Source: Perkinsus olseni
Lineage: Eukaryota
Assembly (NCBI GenBank): GCA_013115125.1
Contig: JABANN010000034.1
Span: 62,001-114,027 of the forward strand
DNA: 52,027 nt
Direction of reading: 5' to 3'
The position numbers were made by a program, and so were the translations under genes. Position 1 is the stretch's first letter. Every line of letters starts with the position of its first letter. Shown in pieces: positions 10,847 through 51,920 of this stretch. The notes beneath the pieces are model-generated. The model did no database searches, was not told the origin of the DNA, and was given only the letters and a program-made list of their open reading frames with translations.

Positions 10847-11860
10847 CTAGTGTTTCTTGGCAAAATCGACACCCCTCTGAATATCTTCCTCGAGCTTCGT
10901 CTCAACAGCCTGCAGCCTCCCCTCCTCGTACTCATTCAACTCAGGCAAGCCCTCTACCTTTGCCACCTCACAATCATTCCCGAACTTGCACTTTGCCGCA
11001 AAGTACTCTAGACCTCCCACAGGCTTCTTCACGAAGGCATATGCCGACTGACCCTGGACGATCTTGTCGACGAAAACAGCAGCAGCGTAGGCCATGGACA
11101 AAGTAGCGGACCCGGCACCCTGCTTCGCCTCCACTACCTCTGTCCCCGCGTTCTGTATGCGCTCGTCCAGCTGCTTGACCGTCGCCGCATCCAATTTGTG
11201 GGGCGGGAAGGCATGGGAGAAGACCGGCATGATAGTCTCGCCAGCATGACCGCCTATCACCGGCACCTCCACTTTATCCACGGCGAAGTTGATCTTGTTC
11301 GAGAAGAAGGTATTGGCTCGAACAGAGTCCAGAGTTGTGACACCCACCAGTCTACGCCAGTCAAAAACGCCTGCCTTCTTCAACGTCTCAGCGGCGATGG
11401 GCACGGTCGAGTTGACAGGGTTAGAGACCACACACAAGGTGGCCTTAGGCGCGTATTCAGCGCAGGATTTCGACAAGCCCATAACGATCTTAGCGTTGAT
11501 GTCAAAAAGATCGTCCCTGGTCATGCCAGGCTTCCTCGGTACACCTGCAGTCATGATGACGAGCTTGGCGTCCCTGAGCGCCTCCGCGATCTCCTCCTCT
11601 CCCGCATAGCCCGTCACTTTAGCGTTGGAGTCGATGTGGCTGATATCAGCCGCCACGCCTTTGCAGGGAGTAGCTGCCTGCTGTATATCGTAAAGAGCAA
11701 GCTCCTTGATGGCCGGGTTCATCTTCAGTAGCAAAGCCAATGGTTGGCCAATCCCACCAGAGGCACCCAACAGGCATACCTTCGAGACCTGGCTGCTGAA
11801 GCCACGGGCCATCATCGCTCTCGATGCCGCTGCCACGAAGGGGCGCTGCAGGATCGACAT
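10847..11860 (-). CDS. MDH: Mitochondrial-type malate dehydrogenase (intronless)
   Basis: Transit-peptide-like MSILQRPFVAAASRAMMARGFSS, then LGASGGIGQPL, AGVPRKPGMTRDDLF, SNPVNSTVP, GVTTLD, VIGGHAG, AGSATLSMA. Confidence 0.96.
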   Translation of the reverse strand: MSILQRPFVAAASRAMMARGFSSQVSKVCLLGASGGIGQPLALLLKMNPAIKELALYDIQQAATPCKGVAADISHIDSNAKVTGYAGEEEIAEALRDAKLVIMTAGVPRKPGMTRDDLFDINAKIVMGLSKSCAEYAPKATLCVVSNPVNSTVPIAAETLKKAGVFDWRRLVGVTTLDSVRANTFFSNKINFAVDKVEVPVIGGHAGETIMPVFSHAFPPHKLDAATVKQLDERIQNAGTEVVEAKQGAGSATLSMAYAAAVFVDKIVQGQSAYAFVKKPVGGLEYFAAKCKFGNDCEVAKVEGLPELNEYEEGRLQAVETKLEEDIQRGVDFAKKH

Positions 11861-11959
11861 AACAAAAAGCCAAAACTCAGACATGACGCAGAACTCCGCC
11901 CGGGACACCGTCAACGAGAAACCGCCGAGAGAAAGAAACCACACACAGGATAAGGAATA

Positions 11960-18960: not shown

Positions 18961-20046
18961 ATGCCTTACACTACCGGTTACAAGTACGAGTCTGAGCTCA
19001 TCGCCACCGCCAACGCCATCTGCGCTGCTGGCAAGGGTATCTTGGCCGCCGATGAGTCCACCGGCACCATCAAGAAGCGTTTCGACGGCGCTGGTATCGT
19101 CAACACTGAGGAGAACCGTGCCGCCTACAGGTCTCTTCTTTTCACCACCCCCGGCCTCGGTGAGTACATCTCCGGTGCCATCCTCTACGAGGAGACCCTC
19201 TTCCAGAAGAACGCCGAGGGTATCGAGATGGTCGAGCTTTTGAAGAAGCAGAACATCATCCCCGGTATCAAGGTCGATAAGGGACTCACCATCCTCGCCG
19301 GTACCGACGGTGAGACCTCCACTATGGGTCTCGATGGCCTCGCCGAGCGTTGCCAGAAGTACTACGCTCAGGGTGCCCGCTTCGCCAAGTGGAGAACCGT
19401 CCTTAAGATCGACGAGGCCAAGCAGATGCCTACCCAGCTCTCTATTGAGGAGACCGCCCACAACCTTGCCCGTTACGCCTCCATCTGCCAGGAGAACGGT
19501 CTCGTCCCCATCGTCGAGCCCGAGATCTTGCAGGATGGCGTCCACACCATCGAGACTGACGCTTACGTCACCGAGCGTGTTCTCACCGCCGTCTTCAAGG
19601 CCCTCAACGACAACCACATCCTCCTCGAGGGCTGCTTGCTCAAGCCTAACATGGTTACCGCCGGTGCCGAGTGCCCCGTCCGCCCCACTTCTGAGGAGAT
19701 CGCCAGGTTGACCGTGCGCACCCTTGCCCGCACTGTTCCCCCGGCCCTCGTCGGTGTCACCTTCCTCTCCGGTGGCCAGTCCGAGGAGATGGCTTCCGTC
19801 AACCTCAACGCCATGAACGCCCTCCCCAAGGAGCGTCGCCCTTGGGCTCTCACCTTCTCTTACGGTCGCGCCCTCCAGGCCTCCACCATCAAGACCTGGT
19901 CTGGCAAGGCCGAGAACACCAAGGCTGCCCAGGCTGTCTTGTTGGCCCGCGCCAAGGGCAACTCTGAGGCTCAGCTCGGTAAGTACCAGGGTTCTTCCGA
20001 TGCTACCGCTAACGAGTCCAACTATGTCAAGAACTACGTCTACTAA
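18961..20046 (+). CDS. FBA: Fructose-bisphosphate aldolase class I (intronless, strongly codon-biased)
   Basis: [35 protein letters not shown], Schiff-base Lys in [24 protein letters not shown]-terminal YVY. Confidence 0.98.
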
Positions 20047-29952: not shown

Positions 29953-30172
29953 CGTTTACCGAGTGCCAAACTGCCCTCGTCCCGCCTACTATGATGAACT
30001 CAAGCATATGATCACACTCTCTGTCCAGAAGCGATTAACCGTAGATACAACAGCAACAAGCAGCAGGCTACTACTAATGATACAGTAACTGAGTCTTCGC
30101 CATCATCATCAACACCATCACTCCGAGTAATCGTTCAAAAGGCCTCATAAAGGCACCAACTACGAGTAAACG

Positions 30173-32921
30173 TTAACTTCGACTAGCCACCCAAACCTGC
30201 GCCTCTCCTGTGACACCGTCGTTGCCCAGCACCAGCAGGTCATCATCTCTATACGCACAGTCCTTCAAGTCAAGATTGTCGCTCGATATGGGTCCGGTGA
30301 AGTTAGATGCTCCCGACCAAACGCCTCGACTCGTCCAAGTGAGCAGCTCACCCTTGTCTGTCACCACAGCCGCTGCCCCATCAGATGAGCCACATGCTCC
30401 CACGGGCTTGCCGGACACCAAGTCGTAGGGCACGTGCAATTGGGACGTCCTCACGCCGTTAACGCTACGATACACATTGCCGCTGTTAACCGAGTACTTC
30501 ACATTTTGAACACCCACGTCAGCAGGCTCATCGTGCAGTCGACCACCGATAGCAGGGAATGACCACTTGTTATTGAACTCATCGCCTAGTATCAAACTAG
30601 AGTCCACCACATCTACTGTAGTCGGGTAGAAGAACGGGCCAGGCTCTAGGAGATTGAGTCGGCTACTCTCGAAGGTGACACAGGAGTCCTCCAACCTACG
30701 ATGCTCCTCCTCGCCACCCTCTTCCACCAAGCCAGCCTTATTGTTCCACCCCCAGCTTGTTGCGCCAGCAGCTACAGCGCAGGTGTAACCCACACCGAAG
30801 AGCCATAGGGCGGCCACAACGGCACCACCGGCCTTGTAGATCCTCCAAGGCAGTATCTTAGCCTTTGCGGAATTCTCACGGAAGGTCTTAGTCAGGCTTG
30901 GCTTCTCCTCTGCTTGCAGAGCTCGACCCATAGCCAGTGCATCAGCCTCACGCGTGATACCGCGGCCAATGCGGTAGGGCGCACCGGAGCTGGTACTTCC
31001 ACTATTGGGGACAGCAGTAGAGGAAGACGATGATGCTTGGGAGCCTTCTGGGATGGAGCTGAGAGATCGTCCCAACTCCCTCGTCTTCTGCTTGTGGATC
31101 TTCTGAGCTAACTTCACCGAGCCGGTCTGACGAGAACAGCAATCGACCGAAGTAGGAATCGGTTCGCGGCAGGAGCTTACCTGTGGAATGAGCTCGGAGA
31201 CCGGCGCCTCTTGTTTGGTCACCGTGTCCATGTGCCTCATCTTGCGTTGCTTCTGTTCCTCATCCAAGCCGAGGACGTCGATCGACATTATCATCGAGAA
31301 CTTGGTCGGGAGATCTCCATCCGGTTCAAGGCCTGGAAAAGCAATCCAACTCACGCTCATACAAAGAGGACTTAGGTCTCGAGTCTGAGAGGCCAACATC
31401 CGAAGTCTGGGAAGAGCCAAAGACACACGAGGAAGTCTCTACTAAAGGCATCCCGCACCCACCCAGGCTGATGAAGTAGCCGATGAACAAGAAGTGGAGG
31501 AAGTAGATGATGGGTGTGAGGATGTTGACCGTCTCTATCCAGCCCTCATGATCTCCAGGAACCCCTCTCTCCATTCTAATACGATAAGTGATGTCGAATG
31601 TGGCAGCAAAGCCGGCTAGGATGGGACCTGAAACAAAGAGGACGTAACGACTGCTGAGGACTCCTTCTCCTCCCGGTGTACCGGAGACTTGCAATAGAGT
31701 CAGACTCCAATGCTCCAGAGGTGACAGGAGGAGGTTCATTCTCTCATGGATGAGGTCGAAGGTGAGCATGAGGAGGATGAAGATCCACGGACCCCAGAAG
31801 TTGTAGGCAATGAAGTAGAACATGAGCCCCATGTAACTGAGGAAGCGGCATCAAGGCAGCCCTGCGCTTACAACTATCGGTCGAGCTTCTGATGACGCGA
31901 CCAGCTATCCCACTTACCAGAGCACGTTGACGAGCTGGTTAGTTCCAAGAACCATGAATACTCGGGCATACGCGTCGAACCCTTGCCAATGCTCCTTAAG
32001 GCGGTTAAACAAATAGAAGTGCTCTACGAAGATGTTGTAGTCCGTAGCGATGTCCCTGCAAAAGGGAAGTAGGACCATATCCTCTCCCAAAGGATCCTAC
32101 TCGGTCGCCGCATTGCTTTCGAGGATCTTCGGAGCCGCCTCTCGAAGCTCCTTATCCTCCTTAGCCCGAGCTCCCTTCACCGGCATGAAACTGAGTAGGT
32201 CAGACTCATCGACGCCACACACCAGTTGCCGATCCTACTTGGACACGACCGGTATCCTAAACATAGTATCGAGGCCCTTCCGTTCGTAGTTCCTGAGGTC
32301 CGCGCATGCTGAGTTGATCTGCTCCTGGCCGGGGACGGGCAGACGCATCCATTGTGTCAACAGACGCACGGCGAAGGTCTGCGGTGAGAAGAAATACAAA
32401 GCTATTCGGGAGACGTTGAGATGGTCCAACCTGTGCTGTGATAGATGCGTGGATGGAGAACCAGATGGACATAACCAGAAAGAATACAGCACTGGCCAGG
32501 TTGAGGGCCCACAGGAAGATCAGCCATGACGGGGTTCCCTCCTCAGGCCTGAGACACTCTTACTACAAACCAACGCCTACAGTCGGCAGCTGCTGCACCC
32601 ACGTTTTGGCTTCATAGTAGAAACCCATGACGAATCCCAGAGTGAGGGTGTTGATAACGAGATAGTTATCCATCTTGCCGATGGTCAGCTCGAAGAGGTC
32701 TCTAAGATCCTCTCGATACAGTTGCACCTGCAAAGGACCATCAGACAACCGACTCTCCACTCAAACCACATGACCGAGATGCTCACCTGGTTGACCCTCA
32801 GCTTCTGTAACTGGAAGATACGTTCCTGATTGAGTTCTCGATTGTACTGGTAGGTCTCCCTATTATACATGAACAGCTCGCCGAGGCCTCCCAGTACGGC
32901 AGCTACTTCTACGAACACCAT
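30173..32921 (-). CDS. Polytopic membrane protein, paralog A (Orai-like N-terminal TM pair, further TMs, C-terminal ectodomain)
   Basis: MVFVEVAAVLGGLGELFMYNRE...QLYREDLRDLFELTIGKMDNYLVINTLTLGFVMGFYYE; TM2 WLIFLWALNLASAVFFLVMSIWFSIHASITAQ; LLTQWMRLPVP; HWQGFDAYARVFMVLGTNQL plus about 4 more hydrophobic helices; PWRIYKAGGAVVAALWLFGV. Collinear with paralog B. Confidence 0.8.
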
Positions 32922-33291
32922 GGCGGTAACCTCAGTAGCAAAACGGGGAGGAAAGGACTGTCCAGAAGAGCAATCGGGAGGCGATACCAAAGGGGCCCGG
33001 CAGTTACTCAACATCTGATGGCAGTGGAAAGAACCACCCACACAAGTGAAGGACCCGTGAAGGACATAGCAGCCCGGAGCTGCCGCATCTAATGCAAGCA
33101 AAATGGGTAAGGATTATACGAGAAGGTCATCGTAGTGGTAGTGCAGGTCGTCGTAGCGGAAGAAGAAATGTACTCAAGTATTCGTACAGTGGGGACGTAA
33201 CGGTAGCAGCTAGTCACAATGGAACAACACAAGTGGGAAGAGGAGAAGGGTGAATCTCCCACTTCAAGCTTCGATACCACTCTAGACATCA

Positions 33292-36200
33292 TCACTCATT
33301 CTCTACAGCTGTCCTCGTAAGGAGGTATGGGTCAACGAAGAACTCTCTGGCGACCACCGCTTCACGAGTATGCTTGTCATAGCCCAACAGGGAGCCTTCA
33401 CAGGCCGACACCCACTCAATGTCAGCGCCTTCTGTACCAGGGATCTCAGCTCGGCCTAGGAACCTCCCCGAGACCATAGACCACAGATCGATCTCAGAGT
33501 TCGGAAGCAACACATAAGCATTCTCATCTGCTGTATGGACCGACACAGCGTTGGGATACTTCGCTGCACCCGGGTACCAATGCGAGCTCTTACCGCTGTT
33601 GAAGTAGATCTGAGCGTCATCTCGGGAAATGGCAACCCAGGCCCCCGCTGCGGACTCCGCAATGAGCCTTGGCTGAGGAGCGGACTCGGCAGCAAGCAGC
33701 ACTTCATTACCGCTGGCACACTCGATAACCCTACCACCCGACAGGACGGCGAGCTCGTCGTTCCGCAGAATGAGGGCATCATCAATCACTGAACTCGTAA
33801 GACCACACTTGCGTGTGACCGCCGAACTGAGGAGCCTCGAACCCAGCAAGTCCGCTGTATAAACCTCACTGGTCGAACGGCATGCAATGGAGGAGGGAGA
33901 GTAGAAGGCAGCACCGTCCAGAAGCGCCGGGGTGGCATAGGATACAGGAGAGCTGAGCAAGTGACGGTTGATGCCTTCCCTGACCGCTGCATTGCGGTCC
34001 CCGGTAGTATCTATCTTGGCGATCTCGAGGGCTGTGTCAACTATGGCACCACACCAACAGAGGAGGGAGACGATACTGCCAAAGTTAGTCATCTGAGTTA
34101 GAGGCAACATCATGCATAAGCACAAGTCACTACGACGACCACCACTATTACCCTTAATGGCATCCTCGACCGTGCCTTATTGAAGCGGTTATCCTCAAGC
34201 AAGTGGAAGCCCTTAGTCTTCTGGACCTCCTTATAAGCCTTCACCTTCTGCTCGTATTCATCCAGCTCCTCAGGGATGAGGGAGAGGCCTCGGGCTCGGC
34301 CCTGGTGGTACGAAAGAGTGGAAATTCCACAGCTGTAGCGATCCCACTACCTGTAACGCTTCATCGGGCATGTCCCACTGCACCTCCCCGGTATCACAAT
34401 TGAGGTGATAGGGCATAGTCTGCCCCTCCTCATCAACATACTCGAGCCTGATCCATCCCTCCCTAGGCTGGAATGGAGTACCAGGAGTGCAGTCCCCTCG
34501 GCCCTGCTCAGCTCGGACGGCTCCTGCTAGGGCTTTCCGTTGAGTAGCGAATTCACCCTTCAGCTGTTCCAACTCCCGAAGCTCCTACAAAGGGACTAGT
34601 GAAAGACGGTGAGCGTCACGACGACAAGAGCCCTCACCCCATCACTGAGCTGCTTCTGCTCCTTCTCCGTCTCCCAATGCCTGAAAAGCCTCCCCAAACT
34701 CCTCTCAGTCGCCTTGCACTGCCTTCGGAGATCCTCAGAAATATCAGGATGATAGCCTTTCTTCGGGTTCTTGAAGTTAATCTTGTCGCTGGCGGGACCG
34801 TACGTGTTGAGCGGACCGTCTTCGGGGAAGCTCGGCAGATTCAAGTGCCTGTGGAATCGTCCTTTTCACCCGTCCAATCATACCGCCACCTCACCCTGCG
34901 TGCATGTGCTTAGGCTGAGCCAGAGGCTCGGCAACTTCCTCCATGGTCTCAACACCGAAGCCCATCACATCAATGCACCATACTGTCGAGAACTTCACGG
35001 GCAGGCCCTTGGAATCAGGCTTGCACAGGTAACTGAGCGGAGACCGTGCAAGTCTCCCACAAAATGAGAGTTCGTCAACAAAACGAAAAGCAGAACCTCG
35101 CACCTGAATTCGCGATTCCTCAAGAGTACTACATAAAGAAGGCCTGCCAGCCGCCCGCTAGTATGACCGCCACAAGGCCAGTGATGGCTCCACCGAACTC
35201 CGTGATGGCATACGTGTCCTCCTTCTGTACCGCGTTGACGTACAGAGCCGTATCAATGGATTGCAGGGCGAGTGGTACAAATAGTAGGAATAACTACACA
35301 CGAACGATGAACCGGCGGCGCCAAGAGAAGCGTGGTAACGCTTACCATGACCATATTCTCCCGGGGCGTGAGAAGTGCATTAATCTGCATGTGGATGAAA
35401 GCGGCGGTGAAGCAACAGATGGTGTACGCATAGGCCGCCCATGGCTGGTTGAAGAAGACTCCATAGTAGGCCAGAGAGAAATAAGACATGGCAGTAAGCA
35501 ACTGATTGGTACCTGCAAGAAGGGAAATGGCGAGGTGAAGGGATGGAGTCCAGGGAGCATCATCACCCCAACACATGCAGACTCTAGCGAAGGCCTCATG
35601 GCATTGCCACTTCTTATGCATCATGTTGAAGAGGTTAAAGTGGGCCAAGAACACCTCCCAATCCGTTGTCAGATCAGCAACACCCTAAAATGCAAGAACC
35701 GTGCAAACGTCAAGACTCCACCAAGATCACACCGATATAATCGCACAGAGGGGACGGCTGTTCGAGTTCCCGACTGCCCTACCCTATTCGGTCTGTTCTT
35801 ATTGGCTAGACTGGAAGGCTGAGTCCTCAAGTCCTTGGGGAGATCATGACCATACTTCCGCCCTTGCTCGAATACAATAGGCACACGGAGCATGGACACA
35901 ACACCGCTGGCTGAGGGGATACGCACAACGTGAACGATTTGTACGGGGCTCTCTTAATACCTTCATAATCCTTCAATCGCGAAGCAGCATCTGCAATCTC
36001 TTGGGCGCTGGGGACTGGAAGCCTCAACCATTGGGTGAGGGCACGGACAGAGAACACTTGGGCATTCACAGAGGCATGCAAGGCAAACCAGAGCGAGAAT
36101 AGGAGAAATATGATCGACGTGCCTGAGCAACACTCGACCTCCTACTCCCGCGGTACAAACGCCTGCCGTCCACCACAAGATACCAAGTTCAATTCCCATC

Positions 36201-36570
36201 CTCCCCACCTTTACTACCAAGTGATATCGCATATGCCCAGAATAGGAAGTTCTGCGTCGGTGATGGTATACGTCCTTTGTAGAACATCTCAATGCACCAT
36301 ACCAGTAGGATAGTACTCACAGTCTGATGAAGGGCAAAGCAACATCTACAGGAGAGCTCCAACGCCATCCAGTCTTACCGCGTAGTTATCCATCTTTCCG
36401 ATAGTAAGGCCGAACAAATCGTGAAGATCCTCTCGATAGAGGTCGACCTGTCTAACACGCATCTTCTGCTGCTGGTAAAGATTCTTCTGTCGCAGCTCAT
36501 TATTGAACTTCCAATTTTCTCGATTGTACGAGAACAGCTCTCCACCAGCCTCCTTCGCAAACTCAGCCAT
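33292..36570 (-). CDS. Polytopic membrane protein, paralog B, with an internal WW-like domain
   Basis: MAEFAKEAGGELFSYNRE...DLYREDLHDLFGLTIGKMDNYA|TVSTILLVWCIEMFYK; AYAISL|GTSIIFLLFSLWFALHASVNAQ; LTQWLRLPVP; KWQCHEAFARVCMCW|GTNQL; WW-like EGWIRLEYVDEEGQTMPYHLNCDTGEVQWDMP; last TM then a beta-rich ectodomain. Confidence 0.8.
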
Positions 36571-37045
36571 CCGCCGCGAGGTAGAGGATCAAGAAAAGTG
36601 TAAGGCAACTGGGCAAACCTGGAATCGATTCCCCTCCCAAGAATCGAACCTCCGAACGCCACAACCTCAGGGTATAGAACGAGTAACCGCGTAGACTCCC
36701 AGCTACACTACCTGGCCAGCCCATCCCAGCTACTAACTTGTAAATGTTAGAGTTTCCCGTCTGACGAGATTGCGCAACGCCACCTGGTGAGCAGCGTAAT
36801 TCCGGTATCCTGCACAAAAGCATTCAACTGGGTGACACGCATGTTACAGTGGCCCAGTCCTTGCGGACGCTAGGTTTTGCATTGACCTTCCAAGACTTTA
36901 TTTTGCTGCAGCTCCTGTCATCCACTCAGAACGGCGCTAACGCATCAGCGAAGCGACGCTGACTTTTACTTCTCCGATGCGCGCGCCTACAAGTATCGCA
37001 TGTTACTTCTCGCTCGCCCTTTTCTCGGGGGATGCGTGAAATGCC

Positions 37046-49211: not shown

Positions 49212-51920
49212 TTAAATCAATCGGCGTTTCAGTCGCGGTGCTCTGGGGTTCCTCAGGAGATTTTCAGGCCGGGGGCATTGTATCCGAGAGGTTCCGTTCT
49301 GGTGGCCCAAGTTGAAGATGTCGTGCATATCGGCACCGGAACCGGCGTTACTGTTGAGACTGACCAGTTGGTTGAGGAGCTCAGACATGTCGTATTCATC
49401 CGCACCCCAATGTATCCACGGAGACCTGCACGAGCGATGAAGAAACACCATAACAAGCTGTTCTCACTTGCTGACGATGTACGGCAATAAGGCTTTCTGG
49501 AACCCTTCTCTGAACCTCGTCGTTAGATCATCCACATTAATCTGACAGGATAATAATAGCAAAGATTATCGTGCAGGATGGCTCAGTCTTACCGTAATGC
49601 CAAACACTAGTTGCTCGGAAATCTTGAGACTCTGGTCCAAAGTGACGTCCTTGATCGCTATGTTCCGTACGTATGGCCACTCCTCATTGCATGAAGCTGA
49701 TATTATCAGACTCCAACCAACCTGACAGAATGAATCGATGATAGCAAATCCACACGAGCCAGAGCTGCCAAGGATTCGTAACTACTGAATTTGAAGAACG
49801 TGAATGGGAGCGTTCACAAGAGAGAAGAGAAGTGCTGGTGCAGAACACGTGCACTGCGCGAAAACCGTCGATGAAAATTCCGCGCATGCAACGTAGGACT
49901 CGTAGAGAACTCCGCAGACATCAACACCAAGCAGAAAGCACTCTTGACCCCAGCGAGCGGCACCTGCTTCCAGGAGTAGACCTTGTCCCAAAGTGCCGAG
50001 CATATCGGTTTCTCTAACTTCGTCCCATTGTTGCCATCTGCTGTATCATTGGTACTTCGAAAGAGGTTGTCCGGCGTTATACACTGTCCGATGTAGAGGG
50101 ACATGCTCAGCTCGTCAAACGAGCCAGCGATCGACATCTCCAACTCGCTTTCGCCAGGAACTACTAGACTGAGTTCCTCCACACTAACACTTCGAAGACC
50201 AGACAGCCACCGTGCCAGAACTTCCATAACGGCCGCTGAAAAAGGACGTTAGTCTCCCTTCGTCCAAACAGTAGCTGAGCTACTTACATTTGTCGTGATA
50301 GAGTGGGCCAACGTCTCTGCAGATGTCTGCTTGCGGGAGCTCTCCTGGGCACTGCCCCACCATATTTGGGAGGAAGTCCCGAAGGCCACTAGTAACCAGC
50401 GGAGCGTTCTCTTTCAGAGTCTCGTTCACACCCGCTAGGTCCAGGCTGGCGTTGCCCGAGTTCACCCACCAGATGACAAAAAAGACGATCCACCCAATCG
50501 CCTTCAGCACGAAGAACGGCAGCCCCAGCTTCTGTACGATTCGTACCAGCCCTCGACAGCAGCTGCCGAGACGACGCGACTTGGCAATCGTCACTGTGCT
50601 CGCTACCGAGTCCACTCGAGACCGGAGTCGCTCTTCTGAGAAGGAGCTGCTCGAGTGGTCCCTCCTATGCTTGATGATGACGCCAGACACCACACTAGCT
50701 CCCTCGCAGATGTCCTCGTCTATTTCGGCCATCTTGAGGAGGTCGTGCTGCGCTGTTCTGAGCATCGGTGGAAGGTCGTGCTTGGCTAACTCGAAGCCAC
50801 TCATAGCCGCCATAAGGACACAGTAGAACCCCCAAGGAGCAACGGCTCGAAGGAGGCTGAATGCGTTGAAGACAAACAAGGTTATGAACAGGGCGAGGGC
50901 GAATACATCGAGCTGTGACCATTCCCACATCCACTGAGCCAACTGCCCGCTCACTCGGCCGACCTGCTTAGGCAGGCACCCAGCCTTGAGCACTGCAACG
51001 GTCGTAATGTGGCACATTGGCAAGCAGACGACGAAGAGCACTAGCAGCACCGTGGGGAGGAGATGGCCAGAATCCATCATACTGCGGCTCATGTCATGCA
51101 GTGATAGAGAGTTCTCCGCCACGACGATTTTCTGCCGGAACAAAAATCTCACCGAGAGGATCGGCCAGCCGAGGGCCCAGACGAAGCCGACCACGAACAT
51201 TGATACCGTCATGTAGAGAAGGACTAAGTCTATCGTCGTGACTACCACTTCTGGGTCCTCCAGGTCCCGCCTCGGTCCTACAGGATTGGGCGGTGCGAAG
51301 ACGCTGTCACTACTGCTGTCCAGGAGCTGCGTGGCGGCTATACTCGCCATACAGTAGAGCGTGAAGTAGTAGAAGCCGCTACGGTAGTGGGCCTCAATGA
51401 CGTTGTGATTGAGGAAGGCCATAGTGAGCACCCCAACAAAGACATCGACCATCTGGTACTTGCTCACTTGCCGTAGCACTCGTCGTAGATCCAAGTACTG
51501 ATGCTTTCGGATATGCACCAAGTGCCCTCGAGTTTCCGAGTACAACAGTACCAACAACTTCACAGCTGGCGTCACAAACGAGAAGAAAATAATAAGTCCA
51601 GCAGGCACCCAGTATCCAGCATCAAACAGATCGTGAACAGAATCGAGAGTGCTCCGCACGAAGCTGGTCTCGGCGAGCGGCGACCTCGGACTCGCGGAGG
51701 TGGGCGCCTCCGCCCCTTCCGTCGCAGGAGGGTCGAGGATGTTGGAGTTGATCGGTATGATGGCTCCGTTGCCGCTAGACGAGAAGCTGTGCTGCTGGCC
51801 GCGAATCTCCACTATTGGCAGCATCAGGCCCGGGATGAGGGCCGAGTACGCGAGAAGGAAGAGGGCTAGGGCGAGGGTTCGCCGGAGGGAGTAGACGCGG
51901 CTGCCGATGGTCAAACCCAT
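49212..51920 (-). CDS. Eukaryotic paraquat-inducible protein A (PqiA/LetA-like) membrane protein: two PqiA domains plus C-terminal soluble domain
   Basis: Domain 1: RSTLDSVHDLFDAGYWVPAGLIIFFSFVTPAVKL, VSKYQMVDVFV, SGFYYFTLYC. Domain 2: LLPTVLLVLFVVCLP, WEWSQLDVFALAL, PWGFYC. After a further TM, exons MEVLARWLSGLRSVSVEEL...IAGSFDELSMSL and INVDDLTTRFREG... Confidence 0.82.

What the first reader, a model, noticed from the sequence alone, without database searches (positions are those of the whole stretch)
30173..36570. Tandem pair of membrane proteins with an Orai/CRAC-like pore helix: a candidate unrecognised Ca2+/cation channel system
Seen: paralog A TM1 reads KMDNYLVINTLTLGFVMGFYYE. Established: human Orai1 85-106 is [22 protein letters not shown]. 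The two align without gaps, with K85, L95, G98, F99, M101 and the selectivity-filter E106 all matched. As in Orai, this helix is preceded by a long cytosolic helical extension (ERIFQLQKLRVNQVQLYREDLRDLFELT) and followed by a short loop and TM2. The rest is unlike animal Orai: extra TMs, a cytosolic loop and a large C-terminal ectodomain. Inference: an Orai-related pore module fused into a larger receptor-like protein, in a lineage not generally considered to have STIM/Orai store-operated entry.
Basis: partly seen in the sequence, partly recalled or inferred. Interest (0 to 1): 0.8.

Follow-up and report, generated by a model that had tools for sequence, protein, structure and literature searches.

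The report
Orai-like membrane protein pair in Perkinsus
Two neighbouring, expressed Perkinsus genes belong to a very large, unnamed family of seven-helix membrane proteins whose core is probably a distant relative of the Orai calcium-channel subunit, which would give this group of protists an unrecognised type of Orai-like channel.

Summary
Two minus-strand genes lie at 32921-30173 (A) and 36570-33292 (B), and both appear as spliced RNA contigs. A's first membrane helix reads as quoted. The window is Perkinsus: protein P0001, named Perkinsus olseni by its sources, matches A almost exactly.

The genes belong to an unnamed family with 1618 representatives at 50% identity. The named hits are Perkinsus and Symbiodinium. 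No family member matches any Pfam family.

The Orai idea is partly supported:
- A protein-language-model search puts Orai-1 as the nearest named family for two members that are 34% identical.

Against it:
- The Pfam Orai-1 model, PDB sequence searches and Foldseek find nothing.
- HH probability is only 2-11%.
- Orai's basic pore residues are not matched.
- The Glu is in 172 of 237 members, and B has Lys there with Glu one turn deeper.

Verdict: probably (about 0.5) a divergent, enlarged Orai-superfamily branch. Channel function and Ca2+ selectivity are inferred, not shown.

The parts
30173..32921 (-). Paralog A gene (CDS, 10 exons, 723 aa). Exons: 32921-32787, 32727-32603, 32548-32431, 32378-32239, 32190-32100, 32055-31918, 31836-31682, 31627-31463, 31332-31181, 31126-30173 (stop included).
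   Evidence: Frame reading. Almost identical to P0001. Spliced RNA contigs show joints 31836|31918, 32054|32100, 32190|32239 and 32378|32431, and pieces 30100-31126 and 31680-31836.
32611..32676 (-). TM1 of paralog A (residues K63-E84). The Glu codon is at 32611-32613.
   Evidence: In both AlphaFold models this segment is the end of one continuous helix, residues 2-84.
32683..32921 (-). Long pre-TM1 cytosolic helix of A (residues 1-62, split by the intron 32786-32728). It holds the most conserved family motifs (F17, Y19, N20, R42, LYREDLRDLF).
30767..30841 (-). Last membrane helix (TM7, residues about 502-526) of A. The conserved Pro499-Trp500 precede it. Coordinates were worked out from residue numbers and are approximate.
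   Evidence: Hydropathy, conservation, model helix 482-525.
30176..30766 (-). C-terminal, probably extracellular or lumenal, beta-rich domain of A (residues about 527-723). Fold unknown.
   Evidence: Beta strands 584-720 at low confidence (pLDDT 30-70). No Pfam hit.
33292..36570 (-). Paralog B gene (CDS, 12 exons). Exons: 36570-36379, 36323-36218, 36122-35961, 35910-35783, 35684-35567, 35512-35346, 35293-35133, 35032-34895, 34848-34638, 34584-34351, 34301-34152, 34092-33292.
   Evidence: Frame reading. tblastn of P0090. All eleven joints are seen in spliced RNA contigs of run X2, ten of them also in X12. The public model P0090 skips exon 35684-35567 and runs into A's first exon.
36219..36323 (-). 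Exon 2 of B: the rest of TM1 and the loop (TVSTILLVWCIEMFYKGRIPSPTQ...). Lys stands at the position of A's Glu84, and Glu stands four residues earlier.
   Evidence: All 17 rows of the B clade show Glu80 with Lys/Arg84.
34366..34458 (-). WW-like motif in the cytosolic region of B (GWIRLEY...PYHLNCDTGEVQWDMP). The match is weak.
   Evidence: Pfam WW E=0.1, 13.1 bits, below the cut-off of 26.9. Sources name two B-clade Perkinsus marinus relatives (P0063, P0088) 'WW domain-containing'. Pfam at E<=1 did not list WW among 58 members.

Best explanation
A and B are two expressed, anciently diverged paralogues of a very large perkinsid/dinoflagellate family of about seven-TM proteins.

The conserved core consists of a long cytosolic helix running straight into TM1, a short outer loop with an invariant-like Pro, TM2, a conserved cytosolic loop, TM3, and a later Pro-containing helix. 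This core is most likely a remote relative of the Orai pore subunit. The family adds an inserted TM hairpin, a cytosolic region (WW-like in B), a seventh TM and a beta-rich outer domain.

Inferred mechanism: subunits assemble around TM1. One helical face of TM1 carries Asp65 at the inner end, hydrophobic or small residues in the middle (69, 73, 76, 80), and Glu84 at the outer end. That is the layout of a cation pore with an outer acidic ring. The ectodomain and cytosolic region would gate or anchor the channel in place of STIM.

A keeps the outer Glu. B has Lys there and Glu one turn deeper on the same face, so B should differ in ion handling, or act as a modifying or heteromeric subunit.

Shown: gene models and expression, family size, conservation pattern, and the three-way convergence on Orai. 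Inferred: homology rather than convergence, oligomerisation, pore lining, and cation or Ca2+ conduction.
For: Family: 108 relatives with no Pfam domain; 1618 representatives at E<=1e-3 and 768 at E<=1e-30.

ESM Atlas, P0001 residues 1-400: after its own cluster (0.93) come two clusters with no common Pfam family (0.88, 0.88), one of them mostly Oomycota by its few taxon records. Then comes an Orai-1 cluster (0.87, 188 of 256 features). All ten best hits with a family share one family or clan.

ESM Atlas replicate, P0085 (34% identical to P0001), named clusters only: the same Oomycota cluster is rank 1 (0.87, 185 of 256 features). Orai-1 clusters are at ranks 2 and 3 (0.87 with 184 features; 0.85 with 175). 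The next different family set appears only at rank 21 (0.78).

- P=0.01 with alignment A3.
- P=0.023 with A1.
- P=0.0026 and Prob 11.4% with 237 family sequences.
- Block-shuffle nulls: 1 of 132 shuffles reach the real score, and 0 of 174.
- The second, colinear alignment puts family TM6 on Orai M4 with Pro on Pro (P=0.14).

The Glu is the likely ancestral state. It is in 18 of 18 rows of the clade on one side of the midpoint root, which includes Symbiodinium, and in most of the A clade. An acidic residue stands at position 84 or 80 in 87 of 108 members.

Spliced RNA contigs show that both genes are transcribed.

Precedents read as passages: divergent Orai clades in diatoms (PMC11085791); Jiraiya/TMEM221 as an Orai derivative without the Ca2+-binding residues (PMC7016017).
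Against: Pfam Orai-1 matched 0 of 11 exon or ORF pieces (E<=10), 0 of 3 full proteins (E<=10) and 0 of 58 members (E<=1).

PDB sequence searches, with one protein and with the family profile, found no Orai at E<=10.

Foldseek against PDB gave no match at E<=0.001 for either model and showed no Orai row. Orai was not listed in the second look at the 628 chains that Foldseek ranks highest (463 of them aligned, 50 entries shown).

HH probability is 2-11%, and only TM1, the loop and the start of TM2 score. Without TM1 the best alignment has P=0.14-0.2.

Conservation of the six matched positions in 237 sequences: K 220, L 187, G 144, F 171, M 31, E 172.

The positions matching Orai's basic inner-pore residues hold Ile/Val61, Asp65 and Ile/Leu/Val69. 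The position matching the TM3 Glu is Ala by consensus (my reading). The Orai residue roles are recalled. The Glu is followed by Gly (216 of 237) and Arg/Lys (194 of 237), not by Orai's acidic loop.

The most conserved face of TM1 (T60, M64, Y67, N71, C78) lies opposite the face that would line the pore.

Twenty of 108 members have no acidic residue at position 80 or 84. The family has seven TMs, not four.
Confidence: 0.5

Rival explanations
1. This is an unrelated, new family of seven-TM proteins, such as a transporter, receptor or adhesion-type membrane protein. Its likeness to Orai is chance or convergence: a long helix running into a membrane helix with a hydrophobic LxxGF pattern and a charged cap.
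Against: Three different representations agree: language-model features, a predicted 3D model searched without Foldseek, and profile-profile alignment. Each put Orai first or nearly first out of thousands of alternatives, and in the same register. The hhalign P-value improved from 0.01-0.023 to 0.0026 when more family diversity was added. Zero of 174 shuffles reached the real score.
Confidence: 0.3
2. The family derives from Orai but is not a Ca2+-selective channel. It could be a non-selective or otherwise selective pore, or a non-conducting regulatory or scaffold protein, as proposed for Jiraiya/TMEM221. The ectodomain and the WW-like region would then do the main work.
For: The Glu is not universal (172 of 237) and is followed by a conserved Gly-Arg. 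A whole clade of 22 rows lacks it, and the B clade has Lys there. Orai's basic inner pore and TM3 Glu are not kept. Passages in PMC7016017 describe an Orai derivative that lost the Ca2+-binding residues.
Against: An acidic residue on the same helical face (position 84 or 80) is kept in 87 of 108 members. A second acidic residue, Asp/Glu65, lies on the same face at the inner end in 204 of 237. This pattern suits an ion path better than a scaffold.
Confidence: 0.2

Closest known systems
Orai / CRAC channel pore subunit (Pfam PF07856 Orai-1; structure 4HKR)
   Same: - Cytosolic N-terminus, with a helix that runs without a break into TM1.
- TM1 pattern K...L..GF.M....E, with Glu on the last turn.
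- Short outer loop with a Pro before TM2.
- A later TM helix with a conserved Pro.
- Best structural match of the core model.
- Nearest named family by language-model features.
- Best hhalign alignment in the same register.
- Orai outside animals also works without STIM (passages in PMC11085791).
   Different: - Not recognised by the Pfam model.
- Seven TMs instead of four.
- A 100-120-residue conserved cytosolic loop between TM2 and TM3.
- A large region after the core, with a last TM and an outer beta-rich domain.
- No basic inner-pore residues and no TM3 Glu.
- TM1 is made of bulky rather than small residues.
- Glu is followed by Gly-Arg.
- Glu is lost or shifted in two of the four clades.
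Divergent Orai relatives: the diatom 'second group' Orai, and Jiraiya/TMEM221
   Same: They set a precedent for Orai-superfamily branches that standard searches separate from canonical Orai. One keeps the Glu (diatoms, passages in PMC11085791). The other has lost the Ca2+-binding residues (passages in PMC7016017).
   Different: Those branches were found by sequence methods and keep the four-TM size. This family is much larger, has extra domains, and is seen here only in perkinsids, dinoflagellates and unnamed environmental sequences. I did not compare sequences with either group.
Four-TM large-pore channels (pannexin, connexin) and a de novo Ca2+ channel hexamer
   Different: Their scores are within noise and no better than soluble helical bundles. 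There is no sequence or feature support.

Membership tests
Orai-1 (PF07856) | Match to the Pfam Orai-1 model at or above its cut-off (25 bits) | tested here: not met
   0 of 11 window pieces (E<=10), 0 of 3 (E<=10), 0 of 58 members (E<=1). Positive control: 26 of 26 metagenome Orai ORFs scored 141-229 bits.
Orai-1 (PF07856) | Profile-profile similarity to Orai over the domain | tested here: inconclusive
   hhalign P 0.0026-0.023, probability 2-11%, 42-47 columns covering TM1, the loop and the start of TM2 only. Shuffle nulls: 1 of 132 and 0 of 174 reach the real score. The rest of the domain has P 0.14-0.2. The Orai alignment is narrow: every sequence was fetched with one TM1 motif.
Orai-1 (PF07856) | Fold of the subunit: M1 with a cytosolic extension, M2, M3, M4 with a Pro kink and an extension | tested here: inconclusive
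Orai-1 (PF07856) | Glu at the outer end of TM1 (human E106, Drosophila E178), the selectivity filter | tested here: inconclusive
   Present in paralog A and in 172 of 237 family members. Lys in paralog B, with Glu four residues earlier. Absent in 20 of 108 members at both positions. In the 23 Orai ORFs the Glu is invariant.
Orai-1 (PF07856) | Basic inner-pore residues of TM1 (human R83, K87, R91; roles recalled) | tested here: not met
   In the shared register these positions hold Ile/Val61, Asp65 (183 of 237) and Ile/Leu/Val69. Lys63, which matches human K85, is kept in 220 of 237.
Orai-1 (PF07856) | Four TM helices with both ends in the cytosol | tested here: not met
   Seven hydrophobic helices by hydropathy and model. 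The C-terminal domain lies beyond the seventh. The extra hairpin and seventh TM are compatible with an Orai core plus additions.
Orai-1 (PF07856) | Hexamer with TM1 lining a central pore | not testable with these tools
   The complex tool takes at most four copies of a chain and 1000 residues, and gives no contacts. No model coordinates were available to inspect.
WW domain (PF00397), paralog B only | Match to the Pfam WW model | tested here: inconclusive
   E=0.1, 13.1 bits against a cut-off of 26.9, matching only the second half of the domain. Not listed among 58 members at E<=1.

The most novel reading that the evidence does not exclude
Perkinsids and dinoflagellates hold a hugely expanded, so far unrecognised branch of the Orai superfamily. 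These would be seven-TM 'receptor-Orai' channels in which an Orai-type TM1 pore is joined in one chain to an outer ligand or adhesion domain and a cytosolic docking region. They would be gated directly from outside or from the cortex, without STIM. Such channels could be the missing Ca2+-entry pathway of this branch of the alveolates. Clades with the Glu kept, shifted or lost would make heteromers with tuned selectivity, and the A/B tandem pair would be one such set.
Probability: 0.3. Interest if true: 0.85.

Novelty: new variant of a known kind. Interest (0 to 1): 0.62.

Why it matters
Store-operated or other Ca2+ entry has been reported in alveolates. BLAST surveys found no Orai or STIM in apicomplexans or Paramecium, and left the channel unidentified (passages in PMC3194816).

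This family has 1618 representatives at 50% identity, carries no annotation, and has Orai as its best structural, feature-based and profile match. That makes it a concrete, testable candidate for a new kind of Orai-like channel in perkinsids and dinoflagellates. These groups include shellfish parasites, coral symbionts and bloom-forming algae.

If the link is real, it would also show how far the Orai fold can be rebuilt: extra TM helices, a fused ectodomain, and a shifted or lost acidic ring. It would add a third divergent branch beside Jiraiya/TMEM221 and the diatom clade.

Limits: I found no named apicomplexan member, so the bearing on malaria or Toxoplasma Ca2+ entry is not shown. My four full-text searches (Orai with Perkinsus, dinoflagellate, Toxoplasma and store-operated, or alveolates) found no paper linking such a family to Orai.

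Tried and rejected
Because of that, the taxa of unnamed hits could not be read.

Searches that gave nothing useful:
- The search for homologous proteins with 'shorter' lengths gave only two fragments and no short Orai-like intermediates.
- The search of protein representatives lists only the best 150, all strong family members. The weak tail, where Orai might sit, could not be seen.
- Foldseek against PDB for both models gave only long-helix proteins at E>0.01.

Other attempts:
- Complex prediction on a homotrimer of P0006 residues 36-360 scored 0.04 and 0.18 against a mark of 0.32. The verdict was 'no answer', the alignment was not used, and it is not evidence either way.
- Raw-read RNA runs X23 and X24 laid 0 reads, so they are no test.
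- Near-global hhalign suggested that Orai's 'H..(11)..W...G' before and in M3 lines up with family H215, W226 and G240. Confidence was near zero, so this is not counted.
I took exon borders from the printed frames, tblastn and RNA joints instead.

Ideas considered and dropped for lack of any hit: MCU-like two-TM pore, bestrophin, pannexin/CALHM.

Not opened: the supplements of PMC7016017 (per-species ORAI counts) and PMC11085791 (Orai alignment). They may show whether canonical Orai is on record for perkinsids or dinoflagellates.
Full report
**What is there**

The window is eukaryotic, with GC about 0.52 and introns of 45-100 nt. Region 30173-36570 holds two genes on the minus strand.

A search with a read-through ORF of gene A found three Perkinsus proteins of 723-725 aa. 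One of them, P0001, is named Perkinsus olseni by its sources and matches the window's gene A almost residue for residue. tblastn of all stored proteins showed that P0090, also labelled P. olseni, is the public model of gene B.

The quoted upstream helix is spliced across the intron 32786-32728.

**Expression and gene models**

Contigs from two RNA-labelled runs (X2, X12) carry the spliced forms of both genes. Fifteen GT..AG joints are listed.
- Thirteen joints match my hand-made exon borders.
- Two corrected me. A has an extra 91-nt exon (32100-32190), as in P0001. B's exon 4 ends at 35783.
- The joints also show that public model P0090 wrongly skips exon 35684-35567 and runs on into A's first exon.
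- The two transcripts are separate records.
- Two raw-read runs laid no reads, so they are no test.

**The family**

A search with residues 1-400 of P0001 returned 108 proteins, none with a Pfam domain on record. The named ones are from Perkinsus (several paralogues per species), Symbiodinium, an MMETSP transcript and a EukProt transcript. The rest are unnamed environmental sequences.

An exhaustive profile search found 1618 representatives at 50% identity with E<=1e-3, and 768 with E<=1e-30.

The most conserved parts are:
- the pre-TM1 helix (F17, Y19, N20, R42, LYREDLRDLF, LT.xKMDxY);
- the stretch after TM2 (HASITAQ..VRLLTQWLRLPVP, with R138, L139 and P140 invariant);
- the run into TM3 (H215, W226, DAYARV.M..GTNQ);
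- a motif after TM6 (GGLP..F.TV.S.DVLG);
- Pro-Trp before TM7.

Hydropathy and two AlphaFold models give the same picture:
- one unbroken helix from residue 2 to 84;
- a 9-residue loop, then TM2;
- a cytosolic loop of about 100 residues;
- four more TMs, a cytosolic region, a seventh TM, and a poorly modelled beta-rich C-terminal domain.

The P0001 model has pLDDT 73.2. The P0006 core model has pLDDT 80.8.

A FastTree of the core gives four main clades. A and B sit in different clades and are 32% identical. So the tandem pair is old, not a recent duplication.

**First round on Orai: negative**

- Pfam's Orai-1 model matched none of 11 window pieces, 3 full proteins or 58 family members.
- phmmer and the family profile found no Orai among PDB sequences at E<=10.
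- Foldseek found nothing for either model.
- The 6-of-22 identity is rare per comparison: 6 of 9,253 control windows. It is not significant for a match picked from all known channels.
- In the 108-sequence alignment the Glu column holds E 65, K 15, A 10, D 5 and G 5, with R 2, C 2 and four other states.
- Paralog B reads ...CIEMFYKGR, with Lys at that place.

**Second round on Orai: three independent pointers**

*1. Language-model features (ESM Atlas).*
- For P0001 residues 1-400, the hits after its own cluster (0.93) are two clusters with no common Pfam family (0.88 each), one of them mostly Oomycota by its few taxon records. Next comes an Orai-1 cluster (0.87, 188 of 256 features shared). 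All ten best hits with a family share one family or clan.
- I repeated the search with P0085, which is 34% identical to P0001 and lies in the clade on the other side of the midpoint root, asking for named clusters only. The same oomycete cluster came first. Orai-1 clusters were at ranks 2 and 3 (0.87 with 184 features; 0.85 with 175). The next different family set appeared only at rank 21, at 0.78.
- The tool warns that scores under 0.9 are leads only.

*2. Structure.*
- I folded a naturally short family member, P0006 (406 aa, the core only), and searched 48,161 representative solved chains with VIA-align, which does not rely on Foldseek.
- With the 723-residue model, Orai was not among the 50 rows shown. 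The tool notes that single domains can be missed in models above 400 residues.

*3. Profile against profile.*
- To get real Orai sequences I scanned metagenome contigs with a degenerate pattern for the short TM1 motif. This returned 70 loci.
- Twenty-six ORFs of 199-652 aa all matched Pfam Orai-1 at E 4e-41 to 3e-68. I aligned 23 of them.
- In every version of the family alignment, hhalign's best local alignment is TM1, loop and start of TM2 on the same part of Orai, with K on K, GF on GF, E on E and P on P. The values are P=0.01 (A3), P=0.023 (A1), P=0.017 (core against core), and P=0.0026 with probability 11.4% using 237 family sequences.
- As a null I shuffled Orai columns within 20-column blocks. 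One of 132 shuffles reached the real score, and 0 of 174 did. The reversed alignment scored 17.3 and 16.4.
- The second-best, colinear alignment puts family TM6 on Orai M4, with the conserved Pro on Pro (P=0.14).
- Without TM1 nothing is significant.
- The Orai set is narrow, because every sequence was fetched with one motif.

**Weighing the evidence**

None of the three results is significant by its own statistic. Each is, however, a search over thousands of alternatives, made with a different representation, and each puts the same pre-named family first or nearly first in one register.

I take real structural kinship as likely, at about 0.7. I take common descent as more likely than convergence, because the profile signal grew when family diversity was added.

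The Atlas and VIA results are.

**What the sequence says about mechanism**

On the tree the Glu looks ancestral:
- It is in all 18 rows of the clade on one side of the midpoint root, and in most of the 51-row A clade.
- The 17-row B clade has Glu at position 80 and Lys/Arg at 84.
- A 22-row clade has mostly small or hydrophobic residues there.

An acidic residue stands at 84 or 80 in 87 of 108 members, and 20 have neither.

A helical-wheel analysis of 237 sequences gives two faces:
- Positions 65, 69, 73, 76, 80 and 84 lie on one face. These are the positions that fall on Orai's pore-lining residues; the Orai residue roles are recalled. The face reads Asp/Glu65 (204 of 237), hydrophobic 69 and 73, Gly/Ala76, variable 80, and Glu84. 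That is acidic at both ends and greasy in the middle, which suits a cation path.
- This is the less conserved face. The most conserved face (T60, M64, Y67, N71, C78) lies opposite. It would pack on TM2 and TM3 if the Orai arrangement holds, but it could equally be the functional face of a non-Orai protein.

Other differences from Orai:
- Orai's basic inner pore is not matched, nor is its TM3 Glu.
- The Glu is followed by Gly (216 of 237) and Arg/Lys (194 of 237), not by an acidic loop.
- TM1 is built of bulky residues, so a pore as tight as Orai's hexamer is not to be expected.

Ca2+ selectivity is therefore open.

**Known context (passages read)**

- Orai occurs in brown algae, oomycetes, diatoms, green algae and early land plants. 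Diatoms have a divergent clade that keeps the Glu. STIM is missing outside animals and choanoflagellates (PMC11085791).
- ORAI is called largely pan-eukaryotic, and Jiraiya/TMEM221 is an Orai offshoot without the Ca2+-binding residues (PMC7016017).
- BLAST found no Orai or STIM in apicomplexans or Paramecium, and the basis of their Ca2+ entry is unknown (PMC3194816).
- ORAI is counted among components likely present in the last eukaryotic common ancestor (PMC7935092).
- Four full-text searches found no paper describing this family or linking it to Orai.

**Verdict**

A and B are members of a large, unannotated perkinsid/dinoflagellate family. It is probably a much-modified branch of the Orai superfamily. 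Channel function is a reasonable inference, not a result.

The decisive tests are a full HHpred run, residue-level structural superposition, oligomer modelling, and electrophysiology of a family member.

Noticed in passing
window 50283-51920 (-): A 546-aa uninterrupted ORF matches Pfam PqiA (paraquat-inducible protein A) at E=1.4e-17 with two stretches. This is a bacterial-type membrane protein family, found here in a Perkinsus nuclear contig.
   Followed up: no
window 18961-20043 (+) and 10850-11944 (-): A class-I fructose-bisphosphate aldolase (E=3.9e-163) and a lactate/malate dehydrogenase (E=4.7e-43 and 5.2e-31 for its two domains) are each readable as one long ORF.
   Followed up: no
window 33292-36570 (-), public protein P0090: The public gene model of paralog B skips exon 35684-35567, which encodes the conserved run into TM3. 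It also reads on into exon 1 of paralog A. Spliced RNA contigs give the correct 12-exon model.
   Followed up: yes
window 30100-36700: All 15 RNA-supported introns listed are 45-100 nt with GT..AG ends. The two transcripts lie under about 100 nt apart by my estimate from contig ends.
   Followed up: partly
L040:127-2082 (-) and L019:326-1600 (-): These are environmental Orai-1 proteins of unusual size. One is 652 aa with the Pfam domain split into three stretches, and the other is 425 aa. So Orai proteins with large inserts exist in nature.
   Followed up: no
P0001 residues 355-400 and the matching part of B (window about 35032-34895): A strongly conserved cytosolic motif follows TM6 (GGLP..F.TV.S.DVLG). 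Pro364 is invariant in 108 sequences, and V370, D374 and G377 are over 90% conserved. It has no known counterpart and could be a gating or docking element.
   Followed up: no
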